Shown: positions 5,706 to 49,799, counted from the stretch's first letter. The stretch: DNA of 64,000 nt from Aureispira anguillae (GCF_026000115.1 NZ_AP026867.1:2905716-2969715); one strand, 5' to 3'. Notes: a model not told the origin generated them from the sequence alone. Numbers and translations: made by a program.

Positions 5706-6018
5706 ACAAAACAGTTTTTTCTAATAAAAAAGACAAGCTCAATACTTATTTGGTATTGGGCTTTTTTTAATGCATTAGAAATCATACATTATATAATAAA
5801 AAATATAATTTATGTGAATTAGGCTTCTTTTTACATTTAAAAATCCTTACATTTATGGCAATATGTGACATAAGAGCACGATAGAAATTATGTTTTATTG
5901 ATAATATGTATTTCCACTTACCTACTCATCATTTGTTGCCTAACAGCAATTAATAGGGATTTTTGTTGTTGAGCATTGGTGAACTGATTCTTATCAAAAA
6001 ACTAATTTTGCTTATTTA

Positions 6019-7566
6019 TTGGGGATAATAAAACAGCACATGAAGTATCTACTAGAAATTTCTAAAATTGTAACTAAAAAGAAGGTAAAAAAGATTGAAA
6101 TCTTCGATGATCACTCTTTGAAACAAAAAAATTCAAAATTCAATGATTTTTATGGTCTCTTGATGGATGGGGCGTTAAAGGATGATCAAGAAGCTGCTAC
6201 AAAGCTTTACAACAGCAACCCTACCGATGACAAATACCGTCAATTAAAATCTAGATTCAAAAAGCGATTACTCAATACTTTATTCTTTTTAGATGTCAAT
6301 CAATCAGCAACTTCTAATTACAACCGTGCCTATTATTGCTGTCACAAAGATTGGACTTTGGTAAAAATATTGCTCTCTAACAATGCACAACAAACAGGTG
6401 CACAGCTAGCTCGAAGTATTATATCTATTGCGCTAAAATTTGACTTTGCTGATATTGTGGTTAACGCAGCTAGAATACTGAGAGAGCATGCCATGTTGGA
6501 AAAGAATGAAAAATTATATGAGGAATACAATAACCTTTGCCAGCAATATCAAATAATTCTGACAGCAGAAATCGAGTCGGAAGAGTATTACCAGCGCATC
6601 GTTATGAACAGCCTCAAATCAGCTTCTAAGCTACAACCATTCATTCCTCAATTTGAAAAATACTGTGCGAGGTTGCTAGAATTATCTCAGCTACATAGTT
6701 CTCCAGTTATTGTATACAATTATTATATTGTCTCTGCTCATTATTATGAGATGCAAAATGACTATCAAAACTTATATAAAATTTGTCAACAAGCAGAGCA
6801 ATACATTGAAGAAAATCCTCGATTTTATAGAGAAGATAAGTTGGCAGAAATTGCCTCCAAAAAGATGCTTGCCCTCTTGCATCTGCAAGATTTTGCACAG
6901 GGAGAAATTGAAGCAGAAAAATACCTAACTATTTTTGAGCGAAATGATGTCTGCATGAAATTGATGGAATATTATTTACTATTAGCGCTGCATACTCAAA
7001 ATTACTCCAAAGCTCACCGCATATTTGGACGAGCCTACGAAGATAAACGCTTCAAGAAATTAACGAGCGACGAGAAAGAAAAATGGAATGCTTTTGAAGT
7101 TTATCTTTGTTTTTTGCTTTGGAATAATCCTGAACAAAGCTTTGAAAGACCTAAACGCTACAAGCAGTTCAGGGTAAAACGTTTTTTGGAGGAGCCTGTT
7201 ATCTTTCCTAAAAACCAACGAATTTTTACCGTTCTATTGGTCATTGGGCAAGTACTGTTTTTATTAAAAGAAGAACGACTGGGGGAAGCATTTGAACGGA
7301 TTGAACGCCTAAAAGGCTACTCTAACCGATTATTAAAACAAGAAGAACACTATAGAGTGACTCAGTTTGTTCGTTTGCTGCAACAATTAGCGAAGGCGCA
7401 TTTTGATTACAAAAATATTGGAGTGCATCAAAAATACCTTGATCGTCTAGAAAATAAATCATTAAAATACAGAGGCTTGATTCATGAATTAGAGATCATC
7501 CCTTATCAAAACCTTTGGGCAATCATATTAAAAACAATTAACTCCAAGACAATGTTCAGATCATAA
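6019..7566 (+). CDS. hypothetical all-alpha (TPR-like) cytoplasmic protein
   Basis: A long ORF of 515 aa with no signal peptide. It is helix-rich and reads like a TPR-like protein, and I recognise no catalytic motif. Confidence 0.5.
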   Translation: MGIIKQHMKYLLEISKIVTKKKVKKIEIFDDHSLKQKNSKFNDFYGLLMDGALKDDQEAATKLYNSNPTDDKYRQLKSRFKKRLLNTLFFLDVNQSATSNYNRAYYCCHKDWTLVKILLSNNAQQTGAQLARSIISIALKFDFADIVVNAARILREHAMLEKNEKLYEEYNNLCQQYQIILTAEIESEEYYQRIVMNSLKSASKLQPFIPQFEKYCARLLELSQLHSSPVIVYNYYIVSAHYYEMQNDYQNLYKICQQAEQYIEENPRFYREDKLAEIASKKMLALLHLQDFAQGEIEAEKYLTIFERNDVCMKLMEYYLLLALHTQNYSKAHRIFGRAYEDKRFKKLTSDEKEKWNAFEVYLCFLLWNNPEQSFERPKRYKQFRVKRFLEEPVIFPKNQRIFTVLLVIGQVLFLLKEERLGEAFERIERLKGYSNRLLKQEEHYRVTQFVRLLQQLAKAHFDYKNIGVHQKYLDRLENKSLKYRGLIHELEIIPYQNLWAIILKTINSKTMFRS

Positions 7567-7637
7567 ATATGGTATGTAAATAATTGACCCCATAAAAGTA
7601 TACACCATTCTTACAATTTACTTAGTCAACCCTTTAA

Positions 7638-8648
7638 ATGATGACATTGCCCCTGATTAGCATCCTTATGCCCGTTAAAAACACGGCTCCGTTCTTAGTT
7701 GAATGCCTAGATTCTATTCTTGCGCAAACCTATTCCAATTGGGAATTAATTGCTGTTAACGATCATTCTACTGATGCTAGCTTAGCTATACTACAACAAT
7801 ATGCCAAAGATTATCCACAGATTGTTGTCCTTAATAATCAAGAACGAGGAATCATCCCTGCGCTCCGTTTGGCTTATTCTCACTCCAAAGGACAATTGAT
7901 TACTCGAATGGACTCGGACGACATAATGCCTGTTTTTAAATTAGAGCGTCTAAGTACTTCCTTACTTAGTAGAGGAATGGGGCATTTAGCAACGGGTTTA
8001 GTAGAGTATTTTAGTGCCGAAACGCTTGGCAATGGCTATCAACGTTATGCGCAATGGCTGAATGGGCTCAGTAGTACAGGAGAAAATTTTAAAGAACTGT
8101 ATAAAGAATGTGTGATTCCCTCCCCTTGTTGGATGATTTATCGAACTGATTTAGAACGCTGCAATGCTTTTAATTTGGATCGTTATCCAGAGGATTATGA
8201 TTTGTGTTTTCGTTTTTATGAAGCGGGGTTAATTTGTATCCCAACAACTGAAGTTTTACATCACTGGAGAGATTCGCAAGGTAGAACTTCTAGGCATGAT
8301 CCCAATTATGCGGACAATAATTTTTTAGCAATCAAAATTCATTATTTTCTAAAATTAAGCAACAACAACAAGCGCCCTTTAGTGCTTTGGGGGGCAGGAA
8401 AAAAAGGAAAATGCATTGCCCAAATGCTTACCAATGCCAAGGTGCCTTTTACTTGGATTTGCAATAATAAAAACAAAATTGGCAAAGATATTTATCAACA
8501 ACGCCTCTATCCGACCTCCCATCTTTCAACCTTAATTCAGCCGCAAATTATTGTAGCGATAGCAGAACCTATTGCTCAAAAAACAATCAAAGAATCATTT
8601 AGCAAACAAGGCTTAACAAGCATGAAAGATTTTTTCTTTTTTTGCTAA
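7638..8648 (+). CDS. family 2 glycosyltransferase
   Basis: The N-terminus reads ILMPVKN...ELIAVNDHSTD...RMDSDDIM, which matches the GT2 Rossmann signature and DxD-type motifs. Confidence 0.8.
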   Translation: MMTLPLISILMPVKNTAPFLVECLDSILAQTYSNWELIAVNDHSTDASLAILQQYAKDYPQIVVLNNQERGIIPALRLAYSHSKGQLITRMDSDDIMPVFKLERLSTSLLSRGMGHLATGLVEYFSAETLGNGYQRYAQWLNGLSSTGENFKELYKECVIPSPCWMIYRTDLERCNAFNLDRYPEDYDLCFRFYEAGLICIPTTEVLHHWRDSQGRTSRHDPNYADNNFLAIKIHYFLKLSNNNKRPLVLWGAGKKGKCIAQMLTNAKVPFTWICNNKNKIGKDIYQQRLYPTSHLSTLIQPQIIVAIAEPIAQKTIKESFSKQGLTSMKDFFFFC

Positions 8649-8887
8649 AAAATTTATTTTTTTGGTTAACAACCTTCATTTTTCTTTCCAAAAGCATGTT
8701 TTATCCAAATCTATTACTAATTTTGTAGTCGATTACACTTAAAAACTCCCCGTTTACCAATAATGCTGTATTAAAACTGCTTAATACCCCAACAAACATT
8801 ATATTGTATGCTCATATAGTATAATAATGTCCCTTTTAAGTAGTTTTATTTTGTATAAAATATTCCTACCAATCAATACACAAAAAC

Positions 8888-9301
8888 ATGGAGTACCATA
8901 CAAAAGAGCTAACCATTACGGTCAGACCTGATGATATTATAGAAATAGCGACCAATAAAAATTTCAAAGGAGAATACTCAATAGAAGCCGTAGCAGAGAA
9001 TTTAGCAACCTTTGAAAAAGCAGTTGATGGAAAAGTAAGAGCTACACTGCTCCATTTTCCAGATCATTATGTCAAAAAGGAAGTAATGAAAGGTTATGCT
9101 AATTCTGAAATTAGTACCGCAGCTACTGCTTTATTTGCTAAGTCATTTGCTTCTAAACTAATTGGGAATCTTTTTTTATCCCTAAGAAAACGGCTTGTTC
9201 AGTCTAGAACAATCCCTCCTACCAAGGTTTTTACAGATAAAAAAAATGCCATAGAATGGTTGTTAAAACATATTGAAGCGCACAAACAGCAACAATCTTA
9301 A
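8888..9301 (+). CDS. small cytoplasmic protein, paralog 1 of a 3-member family (unassigned; possibly STAS-like)
   Basis: 137 aa. It shares M(E/Q)Y(H/K)TKE(L/M)T(I/V)T(V/L)RPD at the start, YVKKEV(M/I)K.Y in the middle, and SFASKLIGNLFL then K(V/I)F...A.EWL at the end with the ORFs at 9529 and 11626. Confidence 0.6.
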   Translation: MEYHTKELTITVRPDDIIEIATNKNFKGEYSIEAVAENLATFEKAVDGKVRATLLHFPDHYVKKEVMKGYANSEISTAATALFAKSFASKLIGNLFLSLRKRLVQSRTIPPTKVFTDKKNAIEWLLKHIEAHKQQQS

Positions 9302-9528
9302 ACGAATTTCACCATTAGAGCATTGAGCTTCAGAAGCTAAAATTTCTAGGCATACATTCATAGGTTTTTACGTTATAAATAGTTTTTTCATTTGCGCTAA
9401 AAAAGCAAAAAAAAATCCCTTTTTTTTGCCTAAAAAACCGAAAAATATTCTACATTTAGTGTACATGTTCTACTGTATTTCTAGTTCTCCTCATTCCCCA
9501 AATCATTTTTAAAATTTGTACCACAGGA

Positions 9529-9948
9529 ATGCAATACCACACCAAAGAAATGACGGTCACACTTAGACCAGATAACATTCTAGCTGTAAAAATCAACGAA
9601 GGATGCAATGAGTTAACCACAGAGGGAACCGAAGAATGTCTCCAAGCAATGACAAAAGCGTTAGCACTTAATGACCACCCCAAAGCCATGATCTTTTGGA
9701 TGGCTCCCTTTTATGTCAAAAAAGAAGTAATAAAAAGCTACAGTACCAGTGAGTTTGATGAAGTTGCAGTTGCACTAGTTTGTCATTCTTATATTTCTAA
9801 ATTTGTGGCTAGTGTTGCTCTAAAAATGAGAGAGCGTTTTACTAGTTCAGAACATACCAACCAAAATGCTCCTATCAAAGTCTTCTTAAAAGAAGAAGAA
9901 GCATTTGAATGGTTACAAGAATGCTTAGCCAAGCGTCAGGCTATCTAA
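9529..9948 (+). CDS. small cytoplasmic protein, paralog 2 of the family
   Basis: 139 aa and the most divergent copy. Its conserved 5' leader ends in aggaATGCAATAC, as does the leader of paralog 3. Confidence 0.6.
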   Translation: MQYHTKEMTVTLRPDNILAVKINEGCNELTTEGTEECLQAMTKALALNDHPKAMIFWMAPFYVKKEVIKSYSTSEFDEVAVALVCHSYISKFVASVALKMRERFTSSEHTNQNAPIKVFLKEEEAFEWLQECLAKRQAI

Positions 9949-10031
9949 TTTTAATGACTTCATTAAACCTTTCATAAGTCTAAGAGTCTCAATAACAAAA
10001 AGTTAAGATTCTTCACCCAATAGACTTTATT

Positions 10032-11378
10032 ATGAAATCATTTTTTATTCTTCTAAATTTATTCGCAACGCTCCCCTTCCTAGCTCAACCAACACTACAA
10101 CCTAGCATTGGAATTGGAGCTTTGCCCAATGATAACGATACCATCTGTGCGTTTCCTACCTTTACTGGAAATTTTGATGCAGTGGGGTATGCCATTGGTG
10201 ATACCGTTCCTGATTTTACCTTATATACAACAAATGGAACCCCTGTTAATTTACAAACGGTTTTAGCTCAGGGCAAACCCGTCTTGTTGATTGGTGGAAA
10301 TTTGACTTGCCCAGTCTTTCGCAACAAAATAGCAACCATTAATAATATGGCTACTATCTATAATGGGCTACTAGAAATTTATATTATCTATGGAATGGAG
10401 GCTCATCCTACAAGCCCTAGCCCCTATAGTGGCACTATATGGATTACCAATTCAAACCAACAAGCAGGTATATTACACCCTCAACCCACAACTTATGGAG
10501 CACGTAAGGCACTTATTGATACGCTTTTGACAACTGAAACAATCCTTCCTCCTATTTTGGTAGATGGAGTTTGCAACGAATGGCTAAGCCATTTCGGTCC
10601 TGCCCCTAACAATGCTTATTTGATTGATACAACAGGCGTTGTTTATGAGAAACAAGGCTGGTTTCACAAATTACCAGATGATATGTATTGCGAAATTGAT
10701 AGCCTCTTGGGTACAACAAATGGATTGTGTAATGCCACAGGCAATAATGGTTTATTTACCTTCGCTTATGTTAACGATACCATTGAGTATGGTGCAGCAG
10801 GAACTATCCTTGGTGTAGAAGCTACTCTAAACAATGTCTCAGCAACAGATAACGTTGTCATTGATATTATTCGGAGGTTCGTTAATGTACCCCAAAATTG
10901 GCAAACAGCAATATGTGTAGACATTTGCTTGCCACCTACAACCGATACTACTCAGGTCACTATCCCCCCAGGAATGACCCAAGATTTCACTTTTTACTTT
11001 TATACGGCCCCTACCATCGATAGTTTTGGCTTTGCTCAACTTGGGTTCAAAAATGTCAATAATAATCAAAATAAGTTCCTTCGTTATTTTTGGGCTGAGA
11101 CAGGCAAAACAACTTCCTCTCCAAAAGTAAGCTCAGCAGAGAACGATCTTCTTTTTTATCCCAACCCTTCATCGGGAATTGTTTATTGGACAGGAACAAA
11201 AACCGTTGAAGGAAGCATCCAAATCATAGATTCCAAGGGCGTAAAAGTCAAGCATTTTACGCCTAAAGTTTGGCAAGACCAACAGATACTCAATTTAAGT
11301 ATGCTTCCTAGAGGCTTGTATTTCCTCCAATTATCCAGTAAAAAAGGTCAAATAACAAAAAAAATAATACTTCGATAG
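10032..11378 (+). CDS. T9SS-secreted protein with thioredoxin-fold (redoxin / deiodinase-like) domain and type A C-terminal sorting domain
   Basis: Signal peptide MKSFFILLNLFATLPFLAQ. The segment DFTLYTTNGTPVNLQTVLAQGKPVLLIGGNLTCPVF has a thioredoxin-fold redoxin layout with a single Cys. The C-terminus LFYPNPSSGIVYW...GLYFLQL...KKIILR is a TIGR04183-like CTD. Confidence 0.7.
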   Translation: MKSFFILLNLFATLPFLAQPTLQPSIGIGALPNDNDTICAFPTFTGNFDAVGYAIGDTVPDFTLYTTNGTPVNLQTVLAQGKPVLLIGGNLTCPVFRNKIATINNMATIYNGLLEIYIIYGMEAHPTSPSPYSGTIWITNSNQQAGILHPQPTTYGARKALIDTLLTTETILPPILVDGVCNEWLSHFGPAPNNAYLIDTTGVVYEKQGWFHKLPDDMYCEIDSLLGTTNGLCNATGNNGLFTFAYVNDTIEYGAAGTILGVEATLNNVSATDNVVIDIIRRFVNVPQNWQTAICVDICLPPTTDTTQVTIPPGMTQDFTFYFYTAPTIDSFGFAQLGFKNVNNNQNKFLRYFWAETGKTTSSPKVSSAENDLLFYPNPSSGIVYWTGTKTVEGSIQIIDSKGVKVKHFTPKVWQDQQILNLSMLPRGLYFLQLSSKKGQITKKIILR

Positions 11379-11625
11379 TTTTGAAAACTAAGTCAATGTA
11401 ATTCAATGGTTACTGCAACAGTTTACCAATTATAAAACTTCTAAACCAAGGAATTACATAAATCAATATCAAACTTTTATTAATTTTAATATATTTTATA
11501 TGCTTTTCATTAATTTTATCAAGCAAAAAAAGCTATATTCGCCAACCAGCTGACCTACTATTACATTCCCCATTTTTCTTTTATAAAGAAGTCTATTTTT
11601 AATTTTCCAAATTTGCTCAATAGGA

Positions 11626-12030
11626 ATGCAATACAAAACAAAAGAGTTAACAGTTACAGTTAGACCTGATACTATTATCGAAATTACAACCAACCCAGAA
11701 ATTTCTGAATATACGATACAAGGAGCAGAAGAAAATGTAGCCCTAATGCGAAAAATTGTAGACAAAAAACCTAGGTCTGTTATGGTTTGGATGCCTAGTG
11801 CTTATATGAAAAAAGAAATTATAAAATACTATAATGAATTTGAAGAGGATAATGTAGCAACCGCCTTATTGACCGAATCTTTTGCGTCTAAATTAATTGG
11901 AAATCTTTTTCTCACACTTAGAACTCGACTTGTCCCCAATCAAAAAACCAAAACCAATCCAATTAAGATCTTCAAAGATCCAAACGAAGCGACAGAATGG
12001 TTGCTGGAACACCTTGCAAAATATCAATAA
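11626..12030 (+). CDS. small cytoplasmic protein, paralog 3 of the family
   Basis: 134 aa and about 50% identical to paralog 1, including an identical SFASKLIGNLFL block. Confidence 0.6.
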   Translation: MQYKTKELTVTVRPDTIIEITTNPEISEYTIQGAEENVALMRKIVDKKPRSVMVWMPSAYMKKEIIKYYNEFEEDNVATALLTESFASKLIGNLFLTLRTRLVPNQKTKTNPIKIFKDPNEATEWLLEHLAKYQ

Positions 12031-12338
12031 GCCAATCTGAATGGTTCTTTTTATTTAGTCGTTATTCCGTCAAAAACTATGCAGTAGTGGACAACTTATC
12101 GATAGAACCACCTTATTATTCAACATTACTCTGTTGAAAAATCGTATTCGATTATTACATGAGTGCTACGCAGTTGATTATCAAAATGATGCAATTTTAC
12201 CACTCAAAATATTAGTTATTTGATAATCAATTGAATACAAGATGTTTTTTTGTTTTTTTTTGTAAAAAAGCAAAAAATTAACGGAGTATTAATTCAAAAA
12301 ATACAAAGCTTAAGACAGAAACTCCGAACTAATATTAG

Positions 12339-12346
12339 TATTTTTG
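12339..12346 (+). promoter_or_regulatory. Bacteroidota-type -7 box (TATTTTTG = TAnnTTTG) upstream of cmk
   Basis: A match to the TAnnTTTG consensus 44 nt upstream of the cmk ATG. Confidence 0.3.
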
Positions 12347-12389
12347 TGTACGATATAGAAATAATCGTCTAAAATCACAATGTTCTTTC

Positions 12390-13097
12390 ATGGAAACTTC
12401 TAAAATAACCATTGCTGTCGATGGTTTTGCGGCTTGTGGCAAAAGTACCTTAGCCAAAGCACTCGCTAAAGAATTGGGGTATGTTTATGTTGATTCAGGA
12501 GCAATGTATCGTGCTGTTACGCTGTATTTTCTAGACCACCAAATAGATATACAAGATGCAATGGCTGTTGATGCTGCCCTCGATCAAATTACCATTCATT
12601 TTGAAAATGTAAATGGTCAAAATCAAACTTTTCTAAATCATGTTAATGTAGAGGATGCCATTCGAAGTATGCGTGTTTCTAGCTACGTAAGCCCTGTTGC
12701 TACTATTTCTGCTGTCCGAAAGGCAATGGTTAAATTGCAACAAACAATGGGAGCAAAAGGTGGCATTGCTATGGATGGTCGAGATATTGGGACTGTTGTT
12801 TTTAAGAATGCTGAATTGAAGCTTTTTTTAACGGCATCGATAGAAGAACGTACCCGTCGCAGACTTGCTGAATGGTCAAGCAAAGGAGTTCTAGACATCA
12901 CTAAGGAGGAAGTAGAAAAAAACTTGCGTACTCGTGACCACATCGATTCTACTAGAGCTGATAGCCCTTTATGTCAAGCAGATGATGCTATTGAAATAGA
13001 CAATAGCCTATTGACACCAGAAGAACAACTTCAGTTTGCGCTTTCCTTATCCAAGGAAGCAATAGAAAAAAAGTCCATGGGATTAGTGGCTAGCTAA
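12390..13097 (+). CDS. cmk: cytidylate kinase
   Basis: P-loop IAVDGFAACGKST, and the overall CMP kinase layout and length. Confidence 0.88.
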   Translation: METSKITIAVDGFAACGKSTLAKALAKELGYVYVDSGAMYRAVTLYFLDHQIDIQDAMAVDAALDQITIHFENVNGQNQTFLNHVNVEDAIRSMRVSSYVSPVATISAVRKAMVKLQQTMGAKGGIAMDGRDIGTVVFKNAELKLFLTASIEERTRRRLAEWSSKGVLDITKEEVEKNLRTRDHIDSTRADSPLCQADDAIEIDNSLLTPEEQLQFALSLSKEAIEKKSMGLVAS

Positions 13098-13117
13098 TCC
13101 TACCCTACTTAATTGTT

Positions 13118-13172
13118 GAAAAAATCATTTTTAAGATAAGTCAAAAAGTTCTTATTTTAAAAATGATTTTTC
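13118..13172. terminator. bidirectional terminator hairpin between convergent cmk and PNPOx-family gene
   Basis: gaaaaaatcatttttaa ... ttaaaaatgattttt form a stem of about 15 bp, flanked by T and A runs. Confidence 0.6.
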
Positions 13173-13188
13173 TAGCATTCAACCATCG

Positions 13189-13731
13189 TTACTCTACAAT
13201 TCCAGTAGCATGTCCATCTAAGCTAATGCTGTTTTTTTCTTTCCAATAAGCCTCAATTTTTTGCTTACCTTTCTTTTCAGCCCAAGTTTTCAGAATGGTT
13301 CGTTCTTCCTTATAATCCATAAAAGGTATTCCATACCCACAAGAAGTTTGCACCAAATCAATCTCCATTACAATAATTTGACGACTACCAACATCCTCAG
13401 GGAATAGATCAATATGCTCGTGAAATTCTTTGTCTCGCTCATGATAAGCCTTGGCTGTTCCATATAAACGCAAAATTAATGGCTTGCCCTCAAAAGCACA
13501 GAACATAATCGTCATTCGGCTACTATCCAATAAATGGGTAGCGGTCTCATTGCCACTTCCTGTTAAATTCAACCACACGATTCGATTCGCCCCCAAAACT
13601 CTAAACGTATCCATTCCCTTGGGAGAGATATTGACACGTCCTTCTTTCATTGCTGTACCGACAAAAAACATTTTTTGCTGGCGAATAAATTCCGTTAAAT
13701 TCGTTGTTAAACTTTCTAATTGTTTCCCCAT
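13189..13731 (-). CDS. pyridoxamine 5'-phosphate oxidase family (FMN-binding split-barrel) protein
   Basis: 180 aa with a PNPOx-like pattern (FFVGTAMKEGRVNISPKG...). It sits 68 bp downstream of the kinase-like gene on the same strand. Confidence 0.7.
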   Translation of the reverse strand: MGKQLESLTTNLTEFIRQQKMFFVGTAMKEGRVNISPKGMDTFRVLGANRIVWLNLTGSGNETATHLLDSSRMTIMFCAFEGKPLILRLYGTAKAYHERDKEFHEHIDLFPEDVGSRQIIVMEIDLVQTSCGYGIPFMDYKEERTILKTWAEKKGKQKIEAYWKEKNSISLDGHATGIVE

Positions 13732-13799
13732 CGTTTGGTTTTATTTTGAGTGATGATACGAAATAAGTTCTTGAGTAACTAAAAACCATAAAACCAGGC

Positions 13800-15929
13800 T
13801 TATTGTTCTAGATTCATGACTAATCCTAGTTTTTTTAACATTATTTGGAGTGGTTCTAACAATTGTTCGTACTTGGTATCAAAGTCTTTCTCCAAGGTAG
13901 TCAATGCTTTTTTAAGCGCCATTTGTTCCAATTCCATTTCACTTAATAGGGTCTTATATTTCAAATCAAGCCGTTGATTTAAGAGCATTTTTTTATTGAG
14001 CGCTAAGCTTTCAATCGCATCCAATTGTTCACAATAATTGTGTACCGAGTCTTTTATGATTTTTTGTTGCGCCTCATAATATTGATTCGTTTCCTTTTTT
14101 TGAGCTTGAATCGCATCAATAATTTTTTGCCTTGCTTCCACAAAACGATCTTCTGCTTCTTTTTTTGCCTTGACCCTTTGAAATGAGACGTTTTTGCTAA
14201 TTAGATCTAACTCTTCATAAAATTTATACTCCAAATCTTGCCAAATTGCTTGATGTTCAGCATCAATTGTTTTGATCTTTTGTTGCTGTTCATCTGCTAA
14301 ATTTTGTAAACAGCTTGGCAAGTATTTTTTCTTTAGAAAGCGTTGTTTTTCTTCGGATGTTCTACCGACAAATTGTTTCCACAATGGCTGCTGATTTCGT
14401 TCTTGAGTGATTGCTACATTTTTTTGCCATTTCTCTTGATTCAATTGCCTGCATTTTTTTTTGTAGACCTTCGTATTTTCCTCCCATTTTTTTTGCAATT
14501 CGCCAGACGTTTGATAAAAAGAAGAAATGAGTTGTTGGTACGCCTTTTTTTGATTCTGATACCCTTCAAAAAGCAGTTGTATTTTTTCGTTTAACAACGG
14601 TTTCCATTTAGTCGCCACATGCAGGGTTGTCGGCAAAAAAATAGGCGTTGGATCTTGCCTCTTTTGTTTTCGTTGGTTATACCATAATAATAGCGCAGCA
14701 ATAAAAACAATGGGCAAGACGAAATAATATTTTATACCTAAAAAAACAACCGTTCCTAAAGCTGCCACTCCCAATAGAGATTTGCCAATTAGTTTTTTCC
14801 AACTTCTTTGTTCTTCCTTGATCTTGTCAATAAGTTGAGACGACTGTTTGCTAATGGTTGCTCCAAAAGTTGCTTCAAATGAATGCACAAAAATAGAGTT
14901 GGAGGCGATTTCCAAAGCAGGAGTTTCTAAGGTTAAACCATCCATAGGGATAAAATAAGTTGGCGCTTCTGCTTCCTCTTTTTCCTCTCCTAAGGCCAAA
15001 CACCAATCTTCTGCTGTTGGTCTTGCCCCTAGCCGCTGAATGCCTTGTATAAAACAGCGATTAAATAAATATTGTAAGACTGTGGGCAGTTGATAAAAAG
15101 CAGCATGTGGAAAAGGAATCGTATCAAAATAATCTTGGTATACTTTATTGTGTACGTACAATCCATGCTTTACCTTTTGCCCTAAACCTACTGCGGTTTC
15201 ATATTTTCCTTGGGTGGTTGCTGCAAAAGGATGAATGCCTAGCAAAACTTTATAAAAAATAATTGCGATACTAAACTGGTCCCAACTAATTGGGATTGCC
15301 TGTGTCCTTTTTGTTAGTTGATGAAATTCTGGCGGCGCAAACTCTGGTGTAGCCATTGCAGCAGCAAAAAGAGTTTGGTTTCCGTTCACTATCTCAACCG
15401 AATCCATATCAACCAAAGAAACCAAGCCATTTTGCTGAATTAAGATATTATCAGGTTTCAGGTCTACCATTACATAGTGTCCCGTTTTATGGATATGATA
15501 AAGTGCTACTGCTATGTTAAAACAAACCTTTTGGCGCAATTTTGAAGCTTGAATGGTTCCTAATTTAAAACGCTGCCATTCTTCAGACAGGTATTGTGGT
15601 AATTTGGTGGTTGCCAATACCTCTAATAACTCGCCATTGGCAAATGGCATCAAAAAGCCCATAAATGCCTGTTTTTTTTCTAACAAAGCAATGGGCCAGC
15701 TTATCAGCATGGCTTGTTCTTTATTTTCAAATACAGGAGGATTTTGAACCAAATAACGCAACTTGTTCCATCGTTCTTTTGTTCTTTTTGGAGGATGATA
15801 TATTTTAGCAACAATAGCTGCATATCCTTTAGGAGCAACAACTCTATAGAGCAAACCTTCGCCCCCTCTGGCAAAAGGAGTCGATGCCAATTGCAAAATT
15901 TCACTAGTAGTGGTGTTTCTAACTTTCAT
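13800..15929 (-). CDS. eukaryotic-like Ser/Thr protein kinase with a central TM segment and long C-terminal coiled-coil
   Basis: VAKI lysine motif, catalytic loop HKTGHYVMVDLKPDNILI, an activation-segment TPEFAPPEF (APE-like), a hydrophobic TM stretch LLGVAALGTVVFLGIKYYFVLPIVFIAALLLW, and then about 300 aa rich in K, E and Q that read as coiled-coil. Confidence 0.7.
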   Translation of the reverse strand: MKVRNTTTSEILQLASTPFARGGEGLLYRVVAPKGYAAIVAKIYHPPKRTKERWNKLRYLVQNPPVFENKEQAMLISWPIALLEKKQAFMGFLMPFANGELLEVLATTKLPQYLSEEWQRFKLGTIQASKLRQKVCFNIAVALYHIHKTGHYVMVDLKPDNILIQQNGLVSLVDMDSVEIVNGNQTLFAAAMATPEFAPPEFHQLTKRTQAIPISWDQFSIAIIFYKVLLGIHPFAATTQGKYETAVGLGQKVKHGLYVHNKVYQDYFDTIPFPHAAFYQLPTVLQYLFNRCFIQGIQRLGARPTAEDWCLALGEEKEEAEAPTYFIPMDGLTLETPALEIASNSIFVHSFEATFGATISKQSSQLIDKIKEEQRSWKKLIGKSLLGVAALGTVVFLGIKYYFVLPIVFIAALLLWYNQRKQKRQDPTPIFLPTTLHVATKWKPLLNEKIQLLFEGYQNQKKAYQQLISSFYQTSGELQKKWEENTKVYKKKCRQLNQEKWQKNVAITQERNQQPLWKQFVGRTSEEKQRFLKKKYLPSCLQNLADEQQQKIKTIDAEHQAIWQDLEYKFYEELDLISKNVSFQRVKAKKEAEDRFVEARQKIIDAIQAQKKETNQYYEAQQKIIKDSVHNYCEQLDAIESLALNKKMLLNQRLDLKYKTLLSEMELEQMALKKALTTLEKDFDTKYEQLLEPLQIMLKKLGLVMNLEQ

Positions 15930-15989
15930 TAAATTGCTGCTTTTTTCAAAAAATCAGCCAACTATTAATTGACTAATTAATAGAAAATG

Positions 15990-15997
15990 TACCTTTG
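15990..15997 (+). promoter_or_regulatory. Bacteroidota-type -7 box (TACCTTTG) in the divergent kinase/lpdA intergenic region
   Basis: A match to TAnnTTTG about 95 nt upstream of the lpdA ATG. Confidence 0.25.
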
Positions 15998-16091
15998 TGC
16001 CAAGATTATGATTCAAAACAAATGTAATTAAAAAAATGGAGATGGTAGTTTTAAACTACTCTACTATTAACACATAAAACATACTCAAATT

Positions 16092-17489
16092 ATGAACTAC
16101 GATGTAATTGTAATTGGAAGTGGTCCTGGTGGCTATGTTGCGGCTATTCGCGCTGCTCAATTGGGGCTCAAAACAGCTGTTGTTGAACGTGAGTCTTTAG
16201 GCGGTATTTGCTTGAACTGGGGATGTATCCCGACCAAAGCATTGCTTAAAAGTGCACAGGTATTTGACTACATCAACCATGCTTCTGATTATGGTATTGA
16301 AACGTCTGAGGCAAAAGCTGACTTTGGCGCTATTGTAAAACGCTCTCGTGGAGTAGCAGACAAAATGAGTAAAGGGATCAAGTTTTTGATGAGTAAAAAC
16401 AAAATTGATGTCTTGATGGGGAGTGGTAAGTTAGTTGCTGGCAAAAAAGTAGCCGTTACCGATGACAAAGGAGGAAGCAAGCAGTATGGTGCAAAACATA
16501 TTATTGTTGCAACAGGTGGTCGTGCTCGCCAATTGCCTGGAATCGCAATTGATGGTAAAAAAATAATTGGCTACCGTGAAGCTATGGTACTACCTGAACT
16601 GCCTAAGAAAATGGTGGTAATGGGTTCTGGTGCAATCGGGATGGAATTTGCTTATTTCTACAAAACACTAGGTACTGAGGTAACAGTAGTAGAATACATG
16701 GACGCTATTTTCCCTAGAGAAGATGCTGATGTTTCTAAAGAAATGAAAAAAGTATTCAAGAAAGCTGGCATGGGCATCAAAACTAGCTCTGCGGTTACTC
16801 AGGTAGATACTAAAGGAAAGGGTTGTAAAGTAACCATCAAACACAACAAAACGGGCAAAGAAGAAGTCATCGAATGTGATGTAGTATTGTCTGCTGTTGG
16901 TGTGGTTCCCAATACTGAAAATATCGGTCTAGAATCTCTAGGGATCAAAACCAACAAACACGGTTTTATTGAGGTAGATGATTTTTATCAAACCAATGTT
17001 GCTGGCATTTATGCTATTGGTGATGTATTGGCGACACAAGCTTTGGCGCACGTTGCTAGTGCAGAAGCAATTACTTGTGTTGAAAAAATTGCAGGGCATC
17101 ATCCTGAAAAAATGGATTATAATAATATCCCTGGCTGTACTTACTGTATCCCAGAAATTGCTTCTGTTGGTATGACTGAAGCGGCTGCCAAAGAAGCTGG
17201 TTATGAATTAAGAATTGGTAAATTCCCATTCTCTGCTTCTGGTAAAGCAAGTGCTTCTGGCGCTAACCATGGTTTTGTAAAAGTTATTTTTGACAAAAAA
17301 TATGGTGAATTCCTAGGTTGTCACATGGTGGGTTCTAATGTAACGGAAATGATTGCTGAGGCTGTTGTTGCTAGAAAACTAGAAACTACTGGTCTTGAAA
17401 TCATCAAATCTGTACATCCTCATCCTACTATGAGTGAGGCAATTATGGAAGCTGCTGCTGCTGCTTATGATGAAGTAATCCATCTATAG
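16092..17489 (+). CDS. lpdA: dihydrolipoyl dehydrogenase (E3)
   Basis: FAD motif DVIVIGSGPGGY, the redox-active CLNWGCIPTK disulfide, and 465 aa. Confidence 0.9.
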   Translation: MNYDVIVIGSGPGGYVAAIRAAQLGLKTAVVERESLGGICLNWGCIPTKALLKSAQVFDYINHASDYGIETSEAKADFGAIVKRSRGVADKMSKGIKFLMSKNKIDVLMGSGKLVAGKKVAVTDDKGGSKQYGAKHIIVATGGRARQLPGIAIDGKKIIGYREAMVLPELPKKMVVMGSGAIGMEFAYFYKTLGTEVTVVEYMDAIFPREDADVSKEMKKVFKKAGMGIKTSSAVTQVDTKGKGCKVTIKHNKTGKEEVIECDVVLSAVGVVPNTENIGLESLGIKTNKHGFIEVDDFYQTNVAGIYAIGDVLATQALAHVASAEAITCVEKIAGHHPEKMDYNNIPGCTYCIPEIASVGMTEAAAKEAGYELRIGKFPFSASGKASASGANHGFVKVIFDKKYGEFLGCHMVGSNVTEMIAEAVVARKLETTGLEIIKSVHPHPTMSEAIMEAAAAAYDEVIHL

Positions 17490-18598: not shown

Positions 18599-19852
18599 AT
18601 GTTGAAGCATATCTATTGGTTAGTATTTTTTTTAGCAAGTGGAATACTTAGCTCTTTTGCGCAGGTTACAACAATGGAATTAATCACTTCTTTGGAGCAA
18701 GAAGCGACTCAGTTAGAAGAACGACAAATGAGTTTATCGTTAGAGTTAGAGACTTTGCGCCTAAAAAAAATAAGAGAAGACCTGCACCATCTAGGGCTTC
18801 CTATTGTCAAAGAAGGTTCGGACAATGAAGTGGTCGAGCATAGTGCTATGGTCTTAGGGTATAACGAAAGTCACGAACAGGCAAATTGGGTGGCTCATCT
18901 AGTTATTCCTGCCGTTCACAAGGGAAATTTGTCTAGAACCAATGATTTCCGCAAAGATTCCTTGGTAACAACGGGTTCTGCTGAAAAGGCGGATTATTGG
19001 TATAGTGGCTATGATAGAGGGCATTTGGCTCCCTCTGCTGATTTTCGTTGGTCAAAACGTGCCATTAGCGAATCTTATGTCTATTCTAATATGGCACCTC
19101 AACGACCTGAACTTAATCGAGAAATTTGGGCTCGTTTAGAAAGCTTTATACGAAAACATGTTTGGGTACAGAATGAGCAACTCTATGTGGTTACAGGTCC
19201 CATTTTTGACAAACAAATAGAAACGATTACACAAGGCCCCAATGTAATTTCAATCCCCAAAAGCTTTTACAAAGTAGTATTAGATCTCAGCGGGCAGGAA
19301 AAAAAGGCAATTGCATTTGTTATGCCAAACGAATTGTGTAAACAACCTTTGGTTAGCTATGCCACATCGATTGATGAGGTAGAAAAATTAACAGGGATTG
19401 ATTTTTTTCCTAAGCTAGAAGCTACTTTAGCTGCTCAATTAGAAGGCAATTTTGATTTTGGAAAATGGGAAAGCCTAAAAGAAGGAGAAATTTCGGCAAA
19501 AGCTCCCCTAAAGGTAAACGAGCGGCCTAAAAACACCCTCAACTCCTTAGAAACTGATTTGTTTATGAACAAAAAAGCTTGTGTTTGTGGTACGGTAGTT
19601 TCTACTCGAAAAACCAAGAGTGGGCTTGTCCTTTTTAACTTCGATGCTAAGTTTCCCAATCATACTTTTTCGGGGTCGGTATCCTCTAGTAATGTCAAAA
19701 ATTTTAGTTACGATCCAGAAATTGAATTTTTAGGCAAAAAGCTATGTGTTACAGGAAAAATTACGGATTATAAAGGTAAATCAACCATGTCTGTTGAACA
19801 TGAAAAAAAAGTAAGCTTCTTAGACGACCAAGGTAAAGCCTTACCAAGATAA
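18599..19852 (+). CDS. secreted DNA/RNA non-specific endonuclease (NucA/Serratia nuclease family)
   Basis: A signal peptide and a YDRGHLAPSAD active-site motif (the DRGH motif of Endonuclease_NS). An N-terminal coiled-coil follows the signal peptide. Confidence 0.8.
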   Translation: MLKHIYWLVFFLASGILSSFAQVTTMELITSLEQEATQLEERQMSLSLELETLRLKKIREDLHHLGLPIVKEGSDNEVVEHSAMVLGYNESHEQANWVAHLVIPAVHKGNLSRTNDFRKDSLVTTGSAEKADYWYSGYDRGHLAPSADFRWSKRAISESYVYSNMAPQRPELNREIWARLESFIRKHVWVQNEQLYVVTGPIFDKQIETITQGPNVISIPKSFYKVVLDLSGQEKKAIAFVMPNELCKQPLVSYATSIDEVEKLTGIDFFPKLEATLAAQLEGNFDFGKWESLKEGEISAKAPLKVNERPKNTLNSLETDLFMNKKACVCGTVVSTRKTKSGLVLFNFDAKFPNHTFSGSVSSSNVKNFSYDPEIEFLGKKLCVTGKITDYKGKSTMSVEHEKKVSFLDDQGKALPR

Positions 19853-49137: not shown

Positions 49138-49799
49138 AGTTTATGTTAATACTCTGTGGATTACTAAGCTGCTTGTTTATGAGGATGTTTTAAATAATGT
49201 TCATCTATCAAACGCATTAATTCTAAATTTAAGGCTCTTTCCGTTTTTACTTCACAACTAGATCAATTGATATTTAACGCCTTTTCTGCTTTACCTCCCT
49301 TATTCGCTGTAAAATATTCTTGATTCCTTCCAAAAATTGACGTTTTCAGCTACTAATTTGAGTTGGAGCTAAGTCATATTTCTTTACCAAGTCTGATAAA
49401 CTAAACGCTTCTTCCAAGGCTTCTAATACTACCTTGGTTTTGAACCTGAAGGCTCAGCGAAGCTAACTTTGTGGTAAACTTTCTTTTTTCACAGCTCTAA
49501 TTTAAGCTTTTTTATTCACTTAAATAGTCGTCCTGTTTTTTTTGGGGTACATGGCAAATGTTAGGGTATGCCTATTTTAAATTGCATGATGTTTATTCCA
49601 ATAATGATTATCAAAGAATTTCTTTTTGAGTTTAAAAGAGTACATTTGTGAGTTTTTTTTATTTAACTTCGTATTAAAACTGTCCCCTATCCAAACTGCA
49701 TTTAGGGAACTATAAAGATTAAAACCATTTATATTTTTGCCTTACAGCTAAACATCAGAACGATTCCCTTCTAGAATCCTCTTTCAACTCCATTTAACC

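What the first reader, a model, noticed from the sequence alone, without database searches (positions are those of the whole stretch)
13189..15929. Eukaryotic-like Ser/Thr kinase with TM segment and 300-aa coiled-coil tail, followed by a PNPOx-family gene
The kinase core has canonical VAKI, HxDLKPDN and APE-like motifs, but an atypical glycine loop (ARGGEGLLYRV) and DMD in place of DFG. It is followed by one strong TM helix and a K/E/Q-rich coiled-coil of about 300 aa that would lie on the opposite side of the membrane. A pyridoxamine-phosphate-oxidase-family gene sits 68 bp downstream on the same strand. Kinases with this topology are uncommon, and their signalling partners in Bacteroidota are poorly described.
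Basis: partly seen in the sequence, partly recalled or inferred. Interest (0 to 1): 0.5.

Follow-up and report, generated by a model that had tools for sequence, protein, structure and literature searches.

The report
YegI-family membrane-anchored Ser/Thr kinase
This gene encodes a Bacteroidota relative of the E. coli kinase YegI; its odd motifs are hallmarks of that known family, its long helical tail most likely lies inside the cell with the kinase rather than across the membrane, and its link to the neighbouring PNPOx gene is only local, so the finding is largely ordinary.

Summary
Both ORFs exist as described: a 709-aa kinase at 13800-15929(-) and a 180-aa PNPOx-family gene 68 bp downstream. 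The window matches Aureispira anguillae. The interpretation needs correcting. The 'atypical' G-loop (GGEG) and DMD-for-DFG are hallmarks of the YegI/COG4248 kinase family (E=2e-21 to E. coli YegI). YegI is an active, Mn2+-preferring kinase that needs its DSD-S motif. Catalytic residues are invariant in 120 relatives, so this is not a pseudokinase. 'HxDLKPDN' is a register error: the HRD position reads M-V-D.

The hydrophobic stretch (aa 385-417) is two short helices split at K400, with R/K clusters on both flanks. About half of the orthologues lack it yet keep kinase and tail. YegI is experimentally two-pass with both termini cytosolic. The tail is therefore most likely cytoplasmic.

The tail is three long helices (AF2 pLDDT >90) and is restricted to this orthologue group. 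Its conserved 'knuckle' motif recurs in many paralogues.

PNPOx adjacency holds only in close Aureispira relatives. The conserved neighbour is divergent lpdA. Many paralogues sit in vWA-PP2C-kinase triads like E. coli yegL-pphC-yegI; this clade does not, but the genome has a PP2C-kinase pair elsewhere. Verdict: new member of a known family, modest interest.

The parts
13800..15929 (-). Gene for a 709-aa YegI-family Ser/Thr protein kinase (100% identical to an Aureispira anguillae 'protein kinase domain-containing protein')
14970..15929 (-). Kinase domain, aa 1-320. It has a complete bilobal ePK fold with a C-lobe extension.
   Evidence: AF2 pLDDT 93-98. Foldseek aligns about 305 columns to Aurora B, PhK-gamma, CaMKII and PknB at TM about 0.70. 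It aligns to YegI aa 9-305 with E=2e-21.
15846..15875 (-). G-loop FARGGEGLLY (aa 19-28). G22, E24 and G25 are invariant across the family.
15801..15812 (-). VAKI (aa 40-43). K42 is the ATP-anchoring lysine and is invariant in 121/121 sequences.
15447..15479 (-). Catalytic loop HYVMVDLKPDN (aa 151-161). The HRD position reads M-V-D. D156 is invariant, and K158 and N161 are present in 120/121.
15399..15410 (-). DMDS (aa 174-177), the family's replacement for DFG. S177 is equivalent to YegI S162, an essential autophosphorylation site.
14676..14780 (-). Hydrophobic hairpin, aa 384-418. Run 1 is LLGVAALGTVVFLGI, then K400, then run 2 YYFVLPIVFIAALLLWY. R/K clusters flank it on both sides. It is the predicted membrane anchor.
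   Evidence: by analogy with YegI topology
13830..14603 (-). Alpha-helical tail, aa 443-700, made of three long helices (443-512, 525-579, 585-700). It is restricted to this orthologue group.
   Evidence: AF2 pLDDT 91-98. The tail profile finds only 9 cluster representatives among 1.84 billion proteins: 7 full-length kinases of this orthologue group and 2 short fragments.
14346..14393 (-). 'Knuckle' QQPLWKQFVGRTSEEK (aa 513-528), a break between helices 1 and 2. It is the most conserved part of the tail, and W517, G522 and K528 are invariant.
   Evidence: The motif occurs in 51/121 family tails against 1.8 expected from shuffles.
13189..13731 (-). A 180-aa PNPOx_N-family (FMN-binding split-barrel) gene 68 bp downstream. 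It may be co-transcribed with the kinase, but the pairing is conserved only in close relatives.
16092..17489 (+). Divergently transcribed dihydrolipoyl dehydrogenase (lpdA). It is the only neighbour conserved throughout the kinase's orthologue clade.
   Evidence: TIGR01350 scores 577 bits against a cutoff of 409. lpdA is the immediate divergent neighbour in 10 orthologue-clade loci and lies 2.3 kb away in an eleventh.
15984..15997 (.). A 14-nt block in the lpdA-kinase intergenic region that is invariant in 7/7 loci. On the lpdA strand it reads AAAATGTACCTTTG, which contains an exact Bacteroidota -7 box (TAnnTTTG).

Best explanation
The gene encodes an active, atypical Hanks-type Ser/Thr kinase of the YegI (COG4248) family.

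Shown or well supported: the N-terminal 320 aa fold as a complete protein kinase. It has the family's own catalytic signature: a GGEG G-loop, the VAK lysine, xVD-L-K-P-x-N in place of HRD, D-x-D-S in place of DFG, TPE, and no conserved alpha-C glutamate.

Inferred from sequence, orthologues, AF2 and the YegI experiments: a short two-helix hydrophobic hairpin (aa 385-417) tethers the protein to the cytoplasmic membrane, and both the kinase and the tail stay in the cytoplasm.

Inferred by homology to YegI: the enzyme prefers Mn2+ and is switched on by intermolecular autophosphorylation of S177, the serine directly after D-M-D.

Inferred from the AF2 secondary structure: the 260-aa tail folds back on itself as a long antiparallel helical bundle. 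The conserved 'knuckle' (W517, G522, K528) would be a docking or regulatory site, and the tail would mediate oligomerisation or partner recruitment rather than extracellular sensing.

Dephosphorylation would come in trans from a PphC-type PP2C that the same genome encodes next to a paralogous kinase. The substrate is unknown. The PNPOx gene is a lineage-local neighbour. The only conserved neighbour is divergent lpdA.
For: Family membership: BLASTP to E. coli YegI gives E=2e-21 over 323 aa, with shared GxGGEG, VAKIYH and DxDS.

Catalytic residues: G22, E24, G25, K42, K56, D156, D174, D176, D217 and R303 are invariant in 121/121 sequences, and K158, N161 and S177 in 120/121.

Fold: AF2 pLDDT 91 and pTM 0.70. 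Foldseek gives 1425 PDB kinase hits with TM about 0.70.

YegI biochemistry (bioRxiv 10.1101/819920, published as FEBS Lett 2020;594:3530): YegI is an active kinase that prefers Mn2+ over Mg2+. Changing DSD to DFG or DSG inactivates it. The S162A mutant is dead. Kinetics are second order. PhoA-LacZ fusions show two membrane passes with both termini cytosolic.

Hairpin: two hydrophobic runs are split by K400, with +4 charge on each flank. All orthologues that have the segment show two runs. Twelve of the 25 orthologue-group sequences that span the region lack the segment but keep the kinase and tail. AF2 predicts a helix-break-helix.

Tail: pLDDT is above 90, and 20 columns are invariant in the tail alignment.

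Phosphatase in trans: A. anguillae PP2C P0134 lies 66 bp upstream of a 736-aa family paralogue.

Family context: vWA-PP2C-kinase triads occur in 18 of 88 loci, mirroring E. coli yegL-pphC-yegI.
Against: No experiment exists for this protein, so activity, metal preference and autophosphorylation rest on 26% identity to YegI.

The two hydrophobic runs (15 and 17 aa) are shorter than YegI's (21 and 21). The hairpin may therefore be re-entrant or monotopic rather than fully membrane-spanning. AF2 confidence there is low (46-64). No dedicated topology predictor was available.

The antiparallel packing of the tail is inferred from helix lengths and from generic SMC- and chemoreceptor-like Foldseek matches (best E=0.08). 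Model coordinates could not be inspected.

The tail shows no detectable similarity to YegI's C-terminal region or its weak HhH.

The kinase has no local PP2C or vWA partner.
Confidence: 0.8

Rival explanations
1. One reading: a single-pass receptor-type kinase whose K/E/Q-rich coiled coil lies in the periplasm and senses or binds something outside the cytoplasm.
For: A strongly hydrophobic segment separates the kinase from the tail. Many bacterial Hanks kinases, such as PknB and PrkC, are single-pass with extracytoplasmic sensor domains (established knowledge). At 33 residues the segment could in principle be one long tilted helix.
Against: Twelve of the 25 orthologue-group sequences that span the region have no hydrophobic segment or signal peptide yet keep the conserved tail, so the kinase and tail share a compartment. 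Positive charge clusters sit on both flanks. Every orthologue and most paralogues show two hydrophobic runs or a 35-80 aa span. YegI is experimentally two-pass with a cytosolic C-terminus. AF2 breaks the helix at about 398-404.
Confidence: 0.06
2. A pseudokinase or scaffold. The loss of HRD His/Arg, the DFG Phe-Gly and the alpha-C Glu would mean the domain no longer catalyses phosphotransfer and acts only as a membrane-tethered structural protein.
For: The HRD position reads M-V-D and DFG reads D-M-D. No acidic residue is conserved in the predicted alpha-C helix. Pfam Pkinase matches only the C-lobe (aa 106-244).
Against: The residues that carry out catalysis (K42, D156, K158, N161, D174) are invariant or nearly so across 121 sequences. 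YegI deviates even further from consensus (VGDxxQxS, DSD) and is an active kinase whose DSD motif is required.
Confidence: 0.05
3. A component of an anti-phage or biological-conflict system, related to kinase-based defence genes (PD-T4-6, mad6) or to vWA-PP2C-kinase modules, with a rapidly diversifying tail as the specificity element.
For: Weak PADLOC hits to mad6 (5e-11) and PD-T4-6 (3e-10). The family has many paralogues per genome with highly variable tails. Many paralogues sit in vWA-PP2C-kinase triads. Kaur et al. 2020 (PMC7159879) mention kinase+PP2C+vWA modules in the context of conflict systems.
Against: The PADLOC and NCBIfam hits cover only the generic kinase C-lobe, and the NCBIfam MAD6 score is far below its curated cutoff (32 against 460 bits). 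This clade sits in a stable position between housekeeping genes (lpdA, cmk), with vertical synteny down to 34% overall kinase identity. No effector, nuclease or mobile-element genes are adjacent. There is no local vWA or PP2C.
Confidence: 0.07

Closest known systems
E. coli YegI (b2070; COG4248 'protein kinase with helix-hairpin-helix domain'; Rajagopalan & Dworkin, FEBS Lett 2020)
   Same: The kinase domains are homologous (E=2e-21). Both have the GxGGEG G-loop, VAKIYH, D-x-D-S in place of DFG with the Ser conserved, no HRD His/Arg, and no conserved alpha-C Glu. The overall plan is the same: kinase, linker, a double hydrophobic segment at about aa 385-435, then a helical C-terminal region.
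   Different: The catalytic loop keeps the canonical D-L-K-P-D-N, whereas YegI has G-D-V-N-Q-N-S. The hydrophobic runs are shorter (15+17 aa against 21+21). The tail has no detectable similarity to YegI's and gives no HhH hit. There is no adjacent PP2C (pphC), vWA (yegL) or Hsp70-like (yegD) gene. The conserved neighbour is lpdA instead.
vWA-PP2C-kinase triads of Saprospiraceae, Cytophagales, Ignavibacteria and Methylococcaceae (paralogues found here, e.g. L031 in Saprospira grandis and L039 in Aureispira sp.)
   Same: Same kinase family (35-49% identity in the best tblastn segment over the kinase domain), the same hairpin, long helical tails, and in many cases the same tail 'knuckle' motif.
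   Different: Those kinases lie directly downstream of vWA and PP2C_2 genes on the same strand. The window kinase belongs to a separate monophyletic clade without them.
Classical bacterial Hanks-type receptor kinases (M. tuberculosis PknB, B. subtilis PrkC)
   Same: Bilobal ePK fold (Foldseek TM about 0.64-0.70 to PknB), a membrane association, and activation-segment autophosphorylation (the last inferred from YegI).
   Different: PknB and PrkC are single-pass with extracytoplasmic PASTA sensor domains and canonical GxGxxG, HRD and DFG motifs. This protein has a hairpin anchor, no extracytoplasmic domain, and the YegI-type motif set.

Membership tests
YegI / COG4248 atypical Ser/Thr kinases | Kinase-domain sequence homology to E. 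coli YegI | tested here: met
   BLASTP E=2e-21, 26% identity over 323 aa. phmmer with YegI against the window ORFs gives 2e-18.
YegI / COG4248 atypical Ser/Thr kinases | D-x-D-S in place of DFG, with the Ser retained (YegI D159-S-D161-S162) | tested here: met
   D174-M-D176-S177. D174 and D176 are invariant in 121/121 sequences and S177 in 120/121.
YegI / COG4248 atypical Ser/Thr kinases | G-x-G-G-E-G glycine loop and no His/Arg at the HRD position | tested here: met
   R21-G-G-E-G25. G22, E24 and G25 are invariant. The HRD position is [LMVIF]-[VI]-D in the 120 relatives and M-V-D here; YegI has V-G-D.
YegI / COG4248 atypical Ser/Thr kinases | Two-pass membrane hairpin with the N- and C-termini in the cytoplasm | tested here: inconclusive
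   Two hydrophobic runs with basic flanks, an AF2 helix-break-helix and orthologues without the segment all point this way. However, the runs are short (15+17 aa), no dedicated predictor or experiment was available, and a monotopic or re-entrant hairpin is not excluded.
YegI / COG4248 atypical Ser/Thr kinases | C-terminal helix-hairpin-helix element (the basis of the COG name) | tested here: not met
   There is no Pfam HhH hit in the tail. YegI itself gives only a weak HHH_5 hit, E=9e-4. hhalign of the tail and knuckle profiles against the YegI C-terminus gives 0.3% and 0.5% probability. The knuckle profile finds no HhH proteins in the PDB.
YegI / COG4248 atypical Ser/Thr kinases | Genomic linkage to a PphC-type PP2C phosphatase and a vWA protein | tested here: not met
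   Neither is present in the 64-kb window or within about 8 kb upstream and 1.5 kb downstream on the contig that was read. The triad is present beside paralogues in 18 loci. In A. anguillae itself a PP2C sits beside another paralogue.
YegI / COG4248 atypical Ser/Thr kinases | Mn2+-preferring autophosphorylating kinase activity | not testable with these tools
   Needs a biochemical assay. It is inferred only from the YegI data.
Hanks-type (eukaryotic-like) protein kinase superfamily, Pfam PF00069 | Profile match above the curated threshold and a bilobal kinase fold | tested here: met
   Pkinase scores 57.3 bits against a cutoff of 31.7, covering aa 106-244 only. The AF2 model gives 1425 PDB kinase hits, about 305 aligned columns, at TM about 0.70.
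Hanks-type (eukaryotic-like) protein kinase superfamily, Pfam PF00069 | Canonical invariant residues: GxGxxG, VAIK Lys, alpha-C Glu, HRD, DFG, APE and the subdomain XI Arg | tested here: inconclusive
   Present: K42, D156, N161, D174, E196 (as TPE) and R303. Altered or absent: G-loop GGEGxL, HRD reads MVD, DFG reads DMD, and no alpha-C Glu is conserved. This is the same deviation pattern as in active YegI.
Pyridoxamine 5'-phosphate oxidase (PdxH) proper, for the downstream gene | Match to a PNPOx equivalog model, not only to the general split-barrel domain | tested here: not met
   Only the general PNPOx_N domain matches (44.3 bits). The best NCBIfam hit, TIGR04025, scores 29 bits against a cutoff of 170. 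It is a generic FMN-binding split-barrel protein and cannot be assigned as PdxH.

The most novel reading that the evidence does not exclude
The lpdA-adjacent clade could be a dedicated regulator of lipoamide dehydrogenase, and so of 2-oxoacid dehydrogenase or glycine-cleavage flux, in Saprospiraceae. This clade is monophyletic and has lost the vWA-PP2C partners. It shares a compact divergent promoter region with lpdA that contains a 14-nt block invariant across kinases only 34-55% identical overall. The kinase would phosphorylate LpdA or an associated E1/E2 component from the membrane, and the conserved tail 'knuckle' would be the docking site. That would be a bacterial analogue of PDK or PknG-OdhI control, built on a YegI-type kinase, and it would give the YegI family its first physiological substrate.
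Probability: 0.08. Interest if true: 0.55.

Novelty: new member of a known kind. Interest (0 to 1): 0.3.

Why it matters
The practical value is corrective. The features flagged as odd (GGEG loop, DMD) are the signature of the YegI family, which has been characterised biochemically. The topology is most likely hairpin-anchored with a cytoplasmic tail, so 'extracellular sensing by a coiled coil' should not be pursued.

The analysis also produced some family-level observations:
- YegI-type kinases are expanded to several paralogues per genome in filamentous gliding Bacteroidota.
- Many sit in vWA-PP2C-kinase triads that mirror the E. coli yegL-pphC-yegI locus.
- One clade has swapped that context for a conserved divergent pairing with lpdA.
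- The membrane hairpin can be lost without loss of the rest of the protein.

The substrates and physiological role of YegI are still unknown. A clade with one fixed housekeeping neighbour offers a concrete candidate, LpdA or the 2-oxoacid dehydrogenases, that could be tested.

Tried and rejected
(1) Tail homology to YegI's C-terminal/HhH region. hhalign gave 0.3% probability for the full tail profile A3 and 0.5% for the family-wide knuckle profile A6. Both runs aligned only 8-13 residues ('EEKQRFLK' to YegI 'RQKQKFLE'), which is not significant. Rejected as unsupported.

(2) Tail against solved structures by sequence and by fold. Only designed helical bundles, SMC arms, chemoreceptors and alpha-pore-forming toxins came up, at E >= 0.08. 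This is generic long-helix similarity and gives no functional lead.

(3) Tail profile against 1.84 billion representative proteins. It hit nothing outside this orthologue group, so there is no evidence that the tail is a mobile domain used elsewhere.

(4) Defence-system assignment through PADLOC and NCBIfam. Only generic kinase C-lobe matches came up, far below the curated cutoffs.

(5) PphC, YegL, YegD and YegJ homologues in the window. None found.

(6) Rfam scan of 12900-16300. Nothing credible; one miRNA-family hit at E=0.2.

(7) A metagenome scan with the 18-nt intergenic block, meant to separate 'lpdA promoter' from 'pair-specific element'. Only 2 of 53 hits were relevant and both carry lpdA and the kinase, so the scan is uninformative.

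(8) The first AF2 run, with 18 orthologues, left the kinase domain unresolved (pLDDT below 50). The 119-sequence alignment fixed this.

(10) Kaur et al. 2020 was checked for a YegI-type triad description. YegI is not named, and there is only a brief mention of kinase+PP2C+vWA modules in actinobacterial GTPase systems.
Full report
OBSERVATION.
The window matches Aureispira anguillae (Saprospiraceae, Bacteroidota): the 709-aa product of ORF 13800-15929(-) is 100% identical to an NCBI protein from its 7.58-Mb chromosome. A 180-aa ORF at 13189-13731(-) follows after 68 bp, with no terminator-like site between them. Pfam calls Pkinase on the first (57.3 bits, cutoff 31.7, but only aa 106-244) and PNPOx_N on the second (44.3 bits, cutoff 28.1). 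The downstream protein matches only the general split-barrel domain and reaches no PNPOx equivalog model.

IDENTITY OF THE KINASE.
Several database hits carry the COG4248 name 'helix-hairpin-helix protein with protein kinase domain'. I fetched E. coli K-12 yegI. The two proteins align over 323 residues at 26% identity, E=2e-21, and share GxGGEG, VAKIYH and D-x-D-S. In an alignment of 120 database relatives plus YegI, the following are invariant in 121/121 sequences: G22, E24, G25, K42, K56, D156, D174, D176, D217 and R303. K158, N161, S177 and T194 are present in 120/121.

No acidic residue is conserved in the predicted alpha-C helix (aa 51-62); its invariant residues are R53 and K56.

With a 119-sequence alignment AF2 gives pLDDT 91 and pTM 0.70. 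Foldseek aligns about 305 columns to Aurora B, phosphorylase kinase gamma, CaMKII and M. tuberculosis PknB at TM about 0.70, with 1425 PDB hits at E <= 1e-3. The fold is a complete kinase.

WHAT IS KNOWN ABOUT YegI.
The sources are Rajagopalan & Dworkin (bioRxiv 10.1101/819920; published in FEBS Lett 2020;594:3530, PMC7658054) and the companion PphC paper (J Bacteriol 2018). They show the following:
- YegI is an active Ser/Thr kinase that prefers Mn2+.
- DSD replaces DFG, and converting it to DFG or DSG abolishes activity.
- S162, the serine directly after DSD, is an autophosphorylation site essential for activity.
- Kinetics are second order, which is consistent with dimers.
- PphC dephosphorylates YegI.
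- PhoA-LacZalpha fusions show two transmembrane segments with both termini in the cytosol.
- Substrates and physiological role remain unknown.

The query's D174-M-D176-S177 corresponds residue for residue to YegI's D159-S-D161-S162.

TOPOLOGY.
The hydrophobic stretch is 33 residues long (385-417). It consists of LLGVAALGTVVFLGI, then K400, then YYFVLPIVFIAALLLWY, with four R/K residues on each flank.

In the 18-sequence orthologue alignment, 8 sequences have a 35-43 aa hydrophobic span. It is always two runs separated by a short aromatic or polar turn. The other 10 have the segment cleanly deleted while keeping the kinase and a well-conserved tail. With P0012 and P0014 added, 12 of the 25 orthologue-group sequences that span the region lack it. 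These segment-less proteins have no signal peptide, so their kinase and tail must both be cytoplasmic. The simplest reading is that the same holds when the hairpin is present.

Across the wider family, most members have a 35-80 aa hydrophobic span at aa 370-470. YegI's own spans are 393-413 and 415-435. Both AF2 runs predict helix, break at about 398-404, then helix.

I conclude that this is a hairpin anchor with a cytoplasmic tail, with one caveat. The runs are short (15 and 17 aa), so the hairpin may be re-entrant rather than fully membrane-spanning. No dedicated topology predictor was available.

THE TAIL.
AF2 predicts three long helices (443-512, 525-579, 585-700) at pLDDT 91-98 in both runs. 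The last helix (116 aa) is about as long as the first two together (125 aa). From this I infer an antiparallel fold-back with a turn near 580-584; the model coordinates could not be inspected. Hydrophobic periodicity is 3.6-3.65, which fits an amphipathic bundle rather than a strict heptad coiled coil.

Conservation is not uniform. The short break at 513-524 (QQPLWKQFVGRT, the 'knuckle') is as conserved as the kinase domain (0.81 against 0.80), and W517, G522, K528, L537 and P538 are invariant.

A profile of the tail searched against 1.84 billion representative proteins found only 9 hits. Seven are full-length kinases of this orthologue group and two are short fragments. The tail has no Pfam family, no solved-structure relative and no significant fold match (best E=0.08, to SMC arms, chemoreceptors and alpha-pore-forming toxins).

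The knuckle motif [WFYLIM]-x-x-h-x-G-x-[TNSGD]-x-x-x-K does recur, in 51 of 121 family tails against 1.8 expected from shuffled tails. The tails are therefore probably fast-evolving homologues. I tested whether the knuckle is a degenerate form of YegI's weak helix-hairpin-helix (HHH_5, E=9e-4). hhalign gives 0.3-0.5% probability, and no HhH proteins appear in a PDB profile search. That idea is not supported.

GENOMIC CONTEXT.
In a TM-less orthologue (P0007) the whole block is syntenic: lpdA, kinase, PNPOx, a methyltransferase, cmk and DUF7793 x2. Beside more distant orthologues the PNPOx gene is absent. P0019 has a GT9 glycosyltransferase there instead, and P0023, P0020 and P0025 have unrelated genes. 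Overall the PNPOx gene accompanies the kinase in only 5 loci.

The neighbour that persists is the divergently transcribed dihydrolipoyl dehydrogenase (TIGR01350, 577 bits against a cutoff of 409). It is the immediate neighbour in 10 loci and lies 2.3 kb away in an eleventh, while genes further out differ.

Their intergenic regions are otherwise barely alignable, but they share an invariant 14-nt block, CAAAGGTACATTTT (window 15984-15997). On the lpdA strand this contains TACCTTTG, an exact match to the Bacteroidota -7 promoter consensus TAnnTTTG (my knowledge of that consensus). It lies about 95 nt upstream of the lpdA ATG. It is most simply read as the lpdA promoter embedded in the kinase's upstream region. 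A metagenome scan could not separate the two genes.

FAMILY CONTEXT.
A scan of species-representative genomes found 219 relatives. The best 80 are from Saprospiraceae (Aureispira, Saprospira grandis), Chitinophagales, Cytophagales (Microscillaceae, Thermoflexibacter, Cytophagaceae), one Ignavibacterium and one Methylococcaceae. Several genomes have multiple paralogues: at least 7 loci in one Aureispira MAG, and six tandem kinase ORFs in L085.

Clustering the neighbouring ORFs across 88 loci revealed two recurrent partners. One is a PP2C_2 phosphatase of about 288 aa (PF13672, E=8e-38), found in 22 loci. The other is a vWA protein of about 222 aa (PF00092, E=7e-10), found in 20 loci. Both occur together in 18 loci, typically in the order vWA, PP2C, kinase on one strand. 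This is the same triad as E. coli yegL-pphC-(yegJ)-yegI.

In a neighbour-joining tree of kinase domains, the lpdA-linked kinases form one clade (9 labelled members plus L012, whose contig is truncated). The PP2C-linked kinases fall in other clades. The window contains no PphC, YegL, YegD or YegJ homologue and no second kinase copy.

A. anguillae does encode a triad-type PP2C elsewhere: P0134, 66% identical to the Aureispira triad phosphatase. It lies 66 bp upstream of a 736-aa family paralogue that carries GGEG, VAK, DLKPDN, DTDS and TPE. A third paralogue, P0047, lies beside clpP and clpX without a phosphatase. FHA proteins were not searched for genome-wide.

MECHANISM (best estimate, confidence about 0.8 for the core).
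The protein is a cytoplasm-facing Ser/Thr kinase anchored to the membrane by a hairpin. It is probably Mn2+-dependent and probably activated by intermolecular autophosphorylation at S177. Its fold-back helical tail would provide oligomerisation and a conserved docking site, the knuckle. Fold, family membership and conservation of the catalytic residues are shown. Topology, metal preference, the autophosphorylation site and the role of the tail are inferred. The substrate is unknown.

RIVALS.
The rival explanations are a single-pass receptor kinase with a periplasmic tail (0.06), a pseudokinase (0.05) and a defence-system component (0.07). Each has specific evidence against it, given in the rival-explanations section.

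NOVELTY AND INTEREST.
This is a new member of a known and partly characterised family. It differs from YegI in four ways: a canonical K-P-x-N catalytic loop, a lineage-restricted tail without HhH, decoupling from the PP2C-vWA partners, and a fixed pairing with lpdA. A specialist would not be surprised by any of these.

The most novel reading the evidence still allows is that the lpdA-adjacent clade regulates lipoamide dehydrogenase or the 2-oxoacid dehydrogenase complexes. It rests only on conserved adjacency, and I put its probability at about 0.08. Overall interest: 0.3.

Noticed in passing
window 15984-15997 (intergenic region between the kinase start at 15929 and the lpdA start at 16092): A 14-nt block, CAAAGGTACATTTT, is invariant in 7/7 orthologous lpdA-kinase intergenic regions that are otherwise barely alignable. 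On the lpdA strand it contains TACCTTTG, an exact Bacteroidota -7 box. A second exact TAnnTTTG (TACATTTG, 16019-16026, minus strand) faces the kinase but is not conserved.
   Followed up: partly
window 16092-17489 (+) and loci L001-L008, L010, L011, L013: Divergent lpdA is the only neighbour conserved across the kinase's orthologue clade, down to 34% overall kinase identity, while all other flanking genes change. The lpdA-linked kinases form a single clade in a neighbour-joining tree.
   Followed up: partly
loci L016, L023, L031, L032, L037, L039, L050, L052, L055, L063-L066, L072, L078, L082, L084, L087: Paralogous kinases sit in conserved vWA-PP2C_2-kinase triads that mirror E. coli yegL-pphC-yegI. 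L082, L084 and L087 carry duplicated vWA genes, and L084 also has a second kinase.
   Followed up: partly
locus L085 (uncultured Cytophagaceae MAG), about 5983-14744: Six consecutive same-strand ORFs of this kinase family lie in tandem, a local paralogue array.
   Followed up: no
orthologues P0005, P0007-P0015, P0017, P0018 (alignment A1, columns about 388-440): The hydrophobic hairpin is cleanly deleted in one Aureispira sub-lineage, while the kinase, linker and tail stay conserved. These proteins are a naturally soluble or peripheral version of the same kinase.
   Followed up: partly
window 8888-9301, 9529-9948 and 11626-12030 (+): Three paralogous small genes of about 135 aa from the DUF7793 family (MxYHTKELTVTxRPD...). 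A T9SS-sorted AhpC/TSA- and deiodinase-like protein (10032-11378, Por_Secre_tail) lies between the second and third. Two DUF7793 copies are also syntenic in L001 and L002.
   Followed up: no
window 49752-57422 (+), repeats at 50370-54396: A giant 2557-aa ORF contains five tandem copies of an 855-bp (285-aa) unit. A 300-nt core is 93-94% identical between copies and the adjacent part about 70%. The high identity suggests recent expansion or ongoing homogenisation of a repeat-domain protein, possibly a surface protein or adhesin.
   Followed up: partly
window 19877-20623 (+) and 20647-23634 (-): A LytTR-type response regulator lies convergent with a 995-aa sensor histidine kinase that has Reg_prop/Y_Y_Y domains. 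Next to them is a secreted Endonuclease_NS gene (18599-19852). This is unrelated to the Ser/Thr kinase.
   Followed up: no
locus L091 (A. anguillae read assembly), 175-3317: A. anguillae encodes a PphC-type PP2C (P0134) 66 bp upstream of a 736-aa paralogous YegI-family kinase, followed by a PKD/CHU_C giant protein of at least 1629 aa. The contig begins at the PP2C gene, so whether a vWA gene precedes it is unknown.
   Followed up: partly
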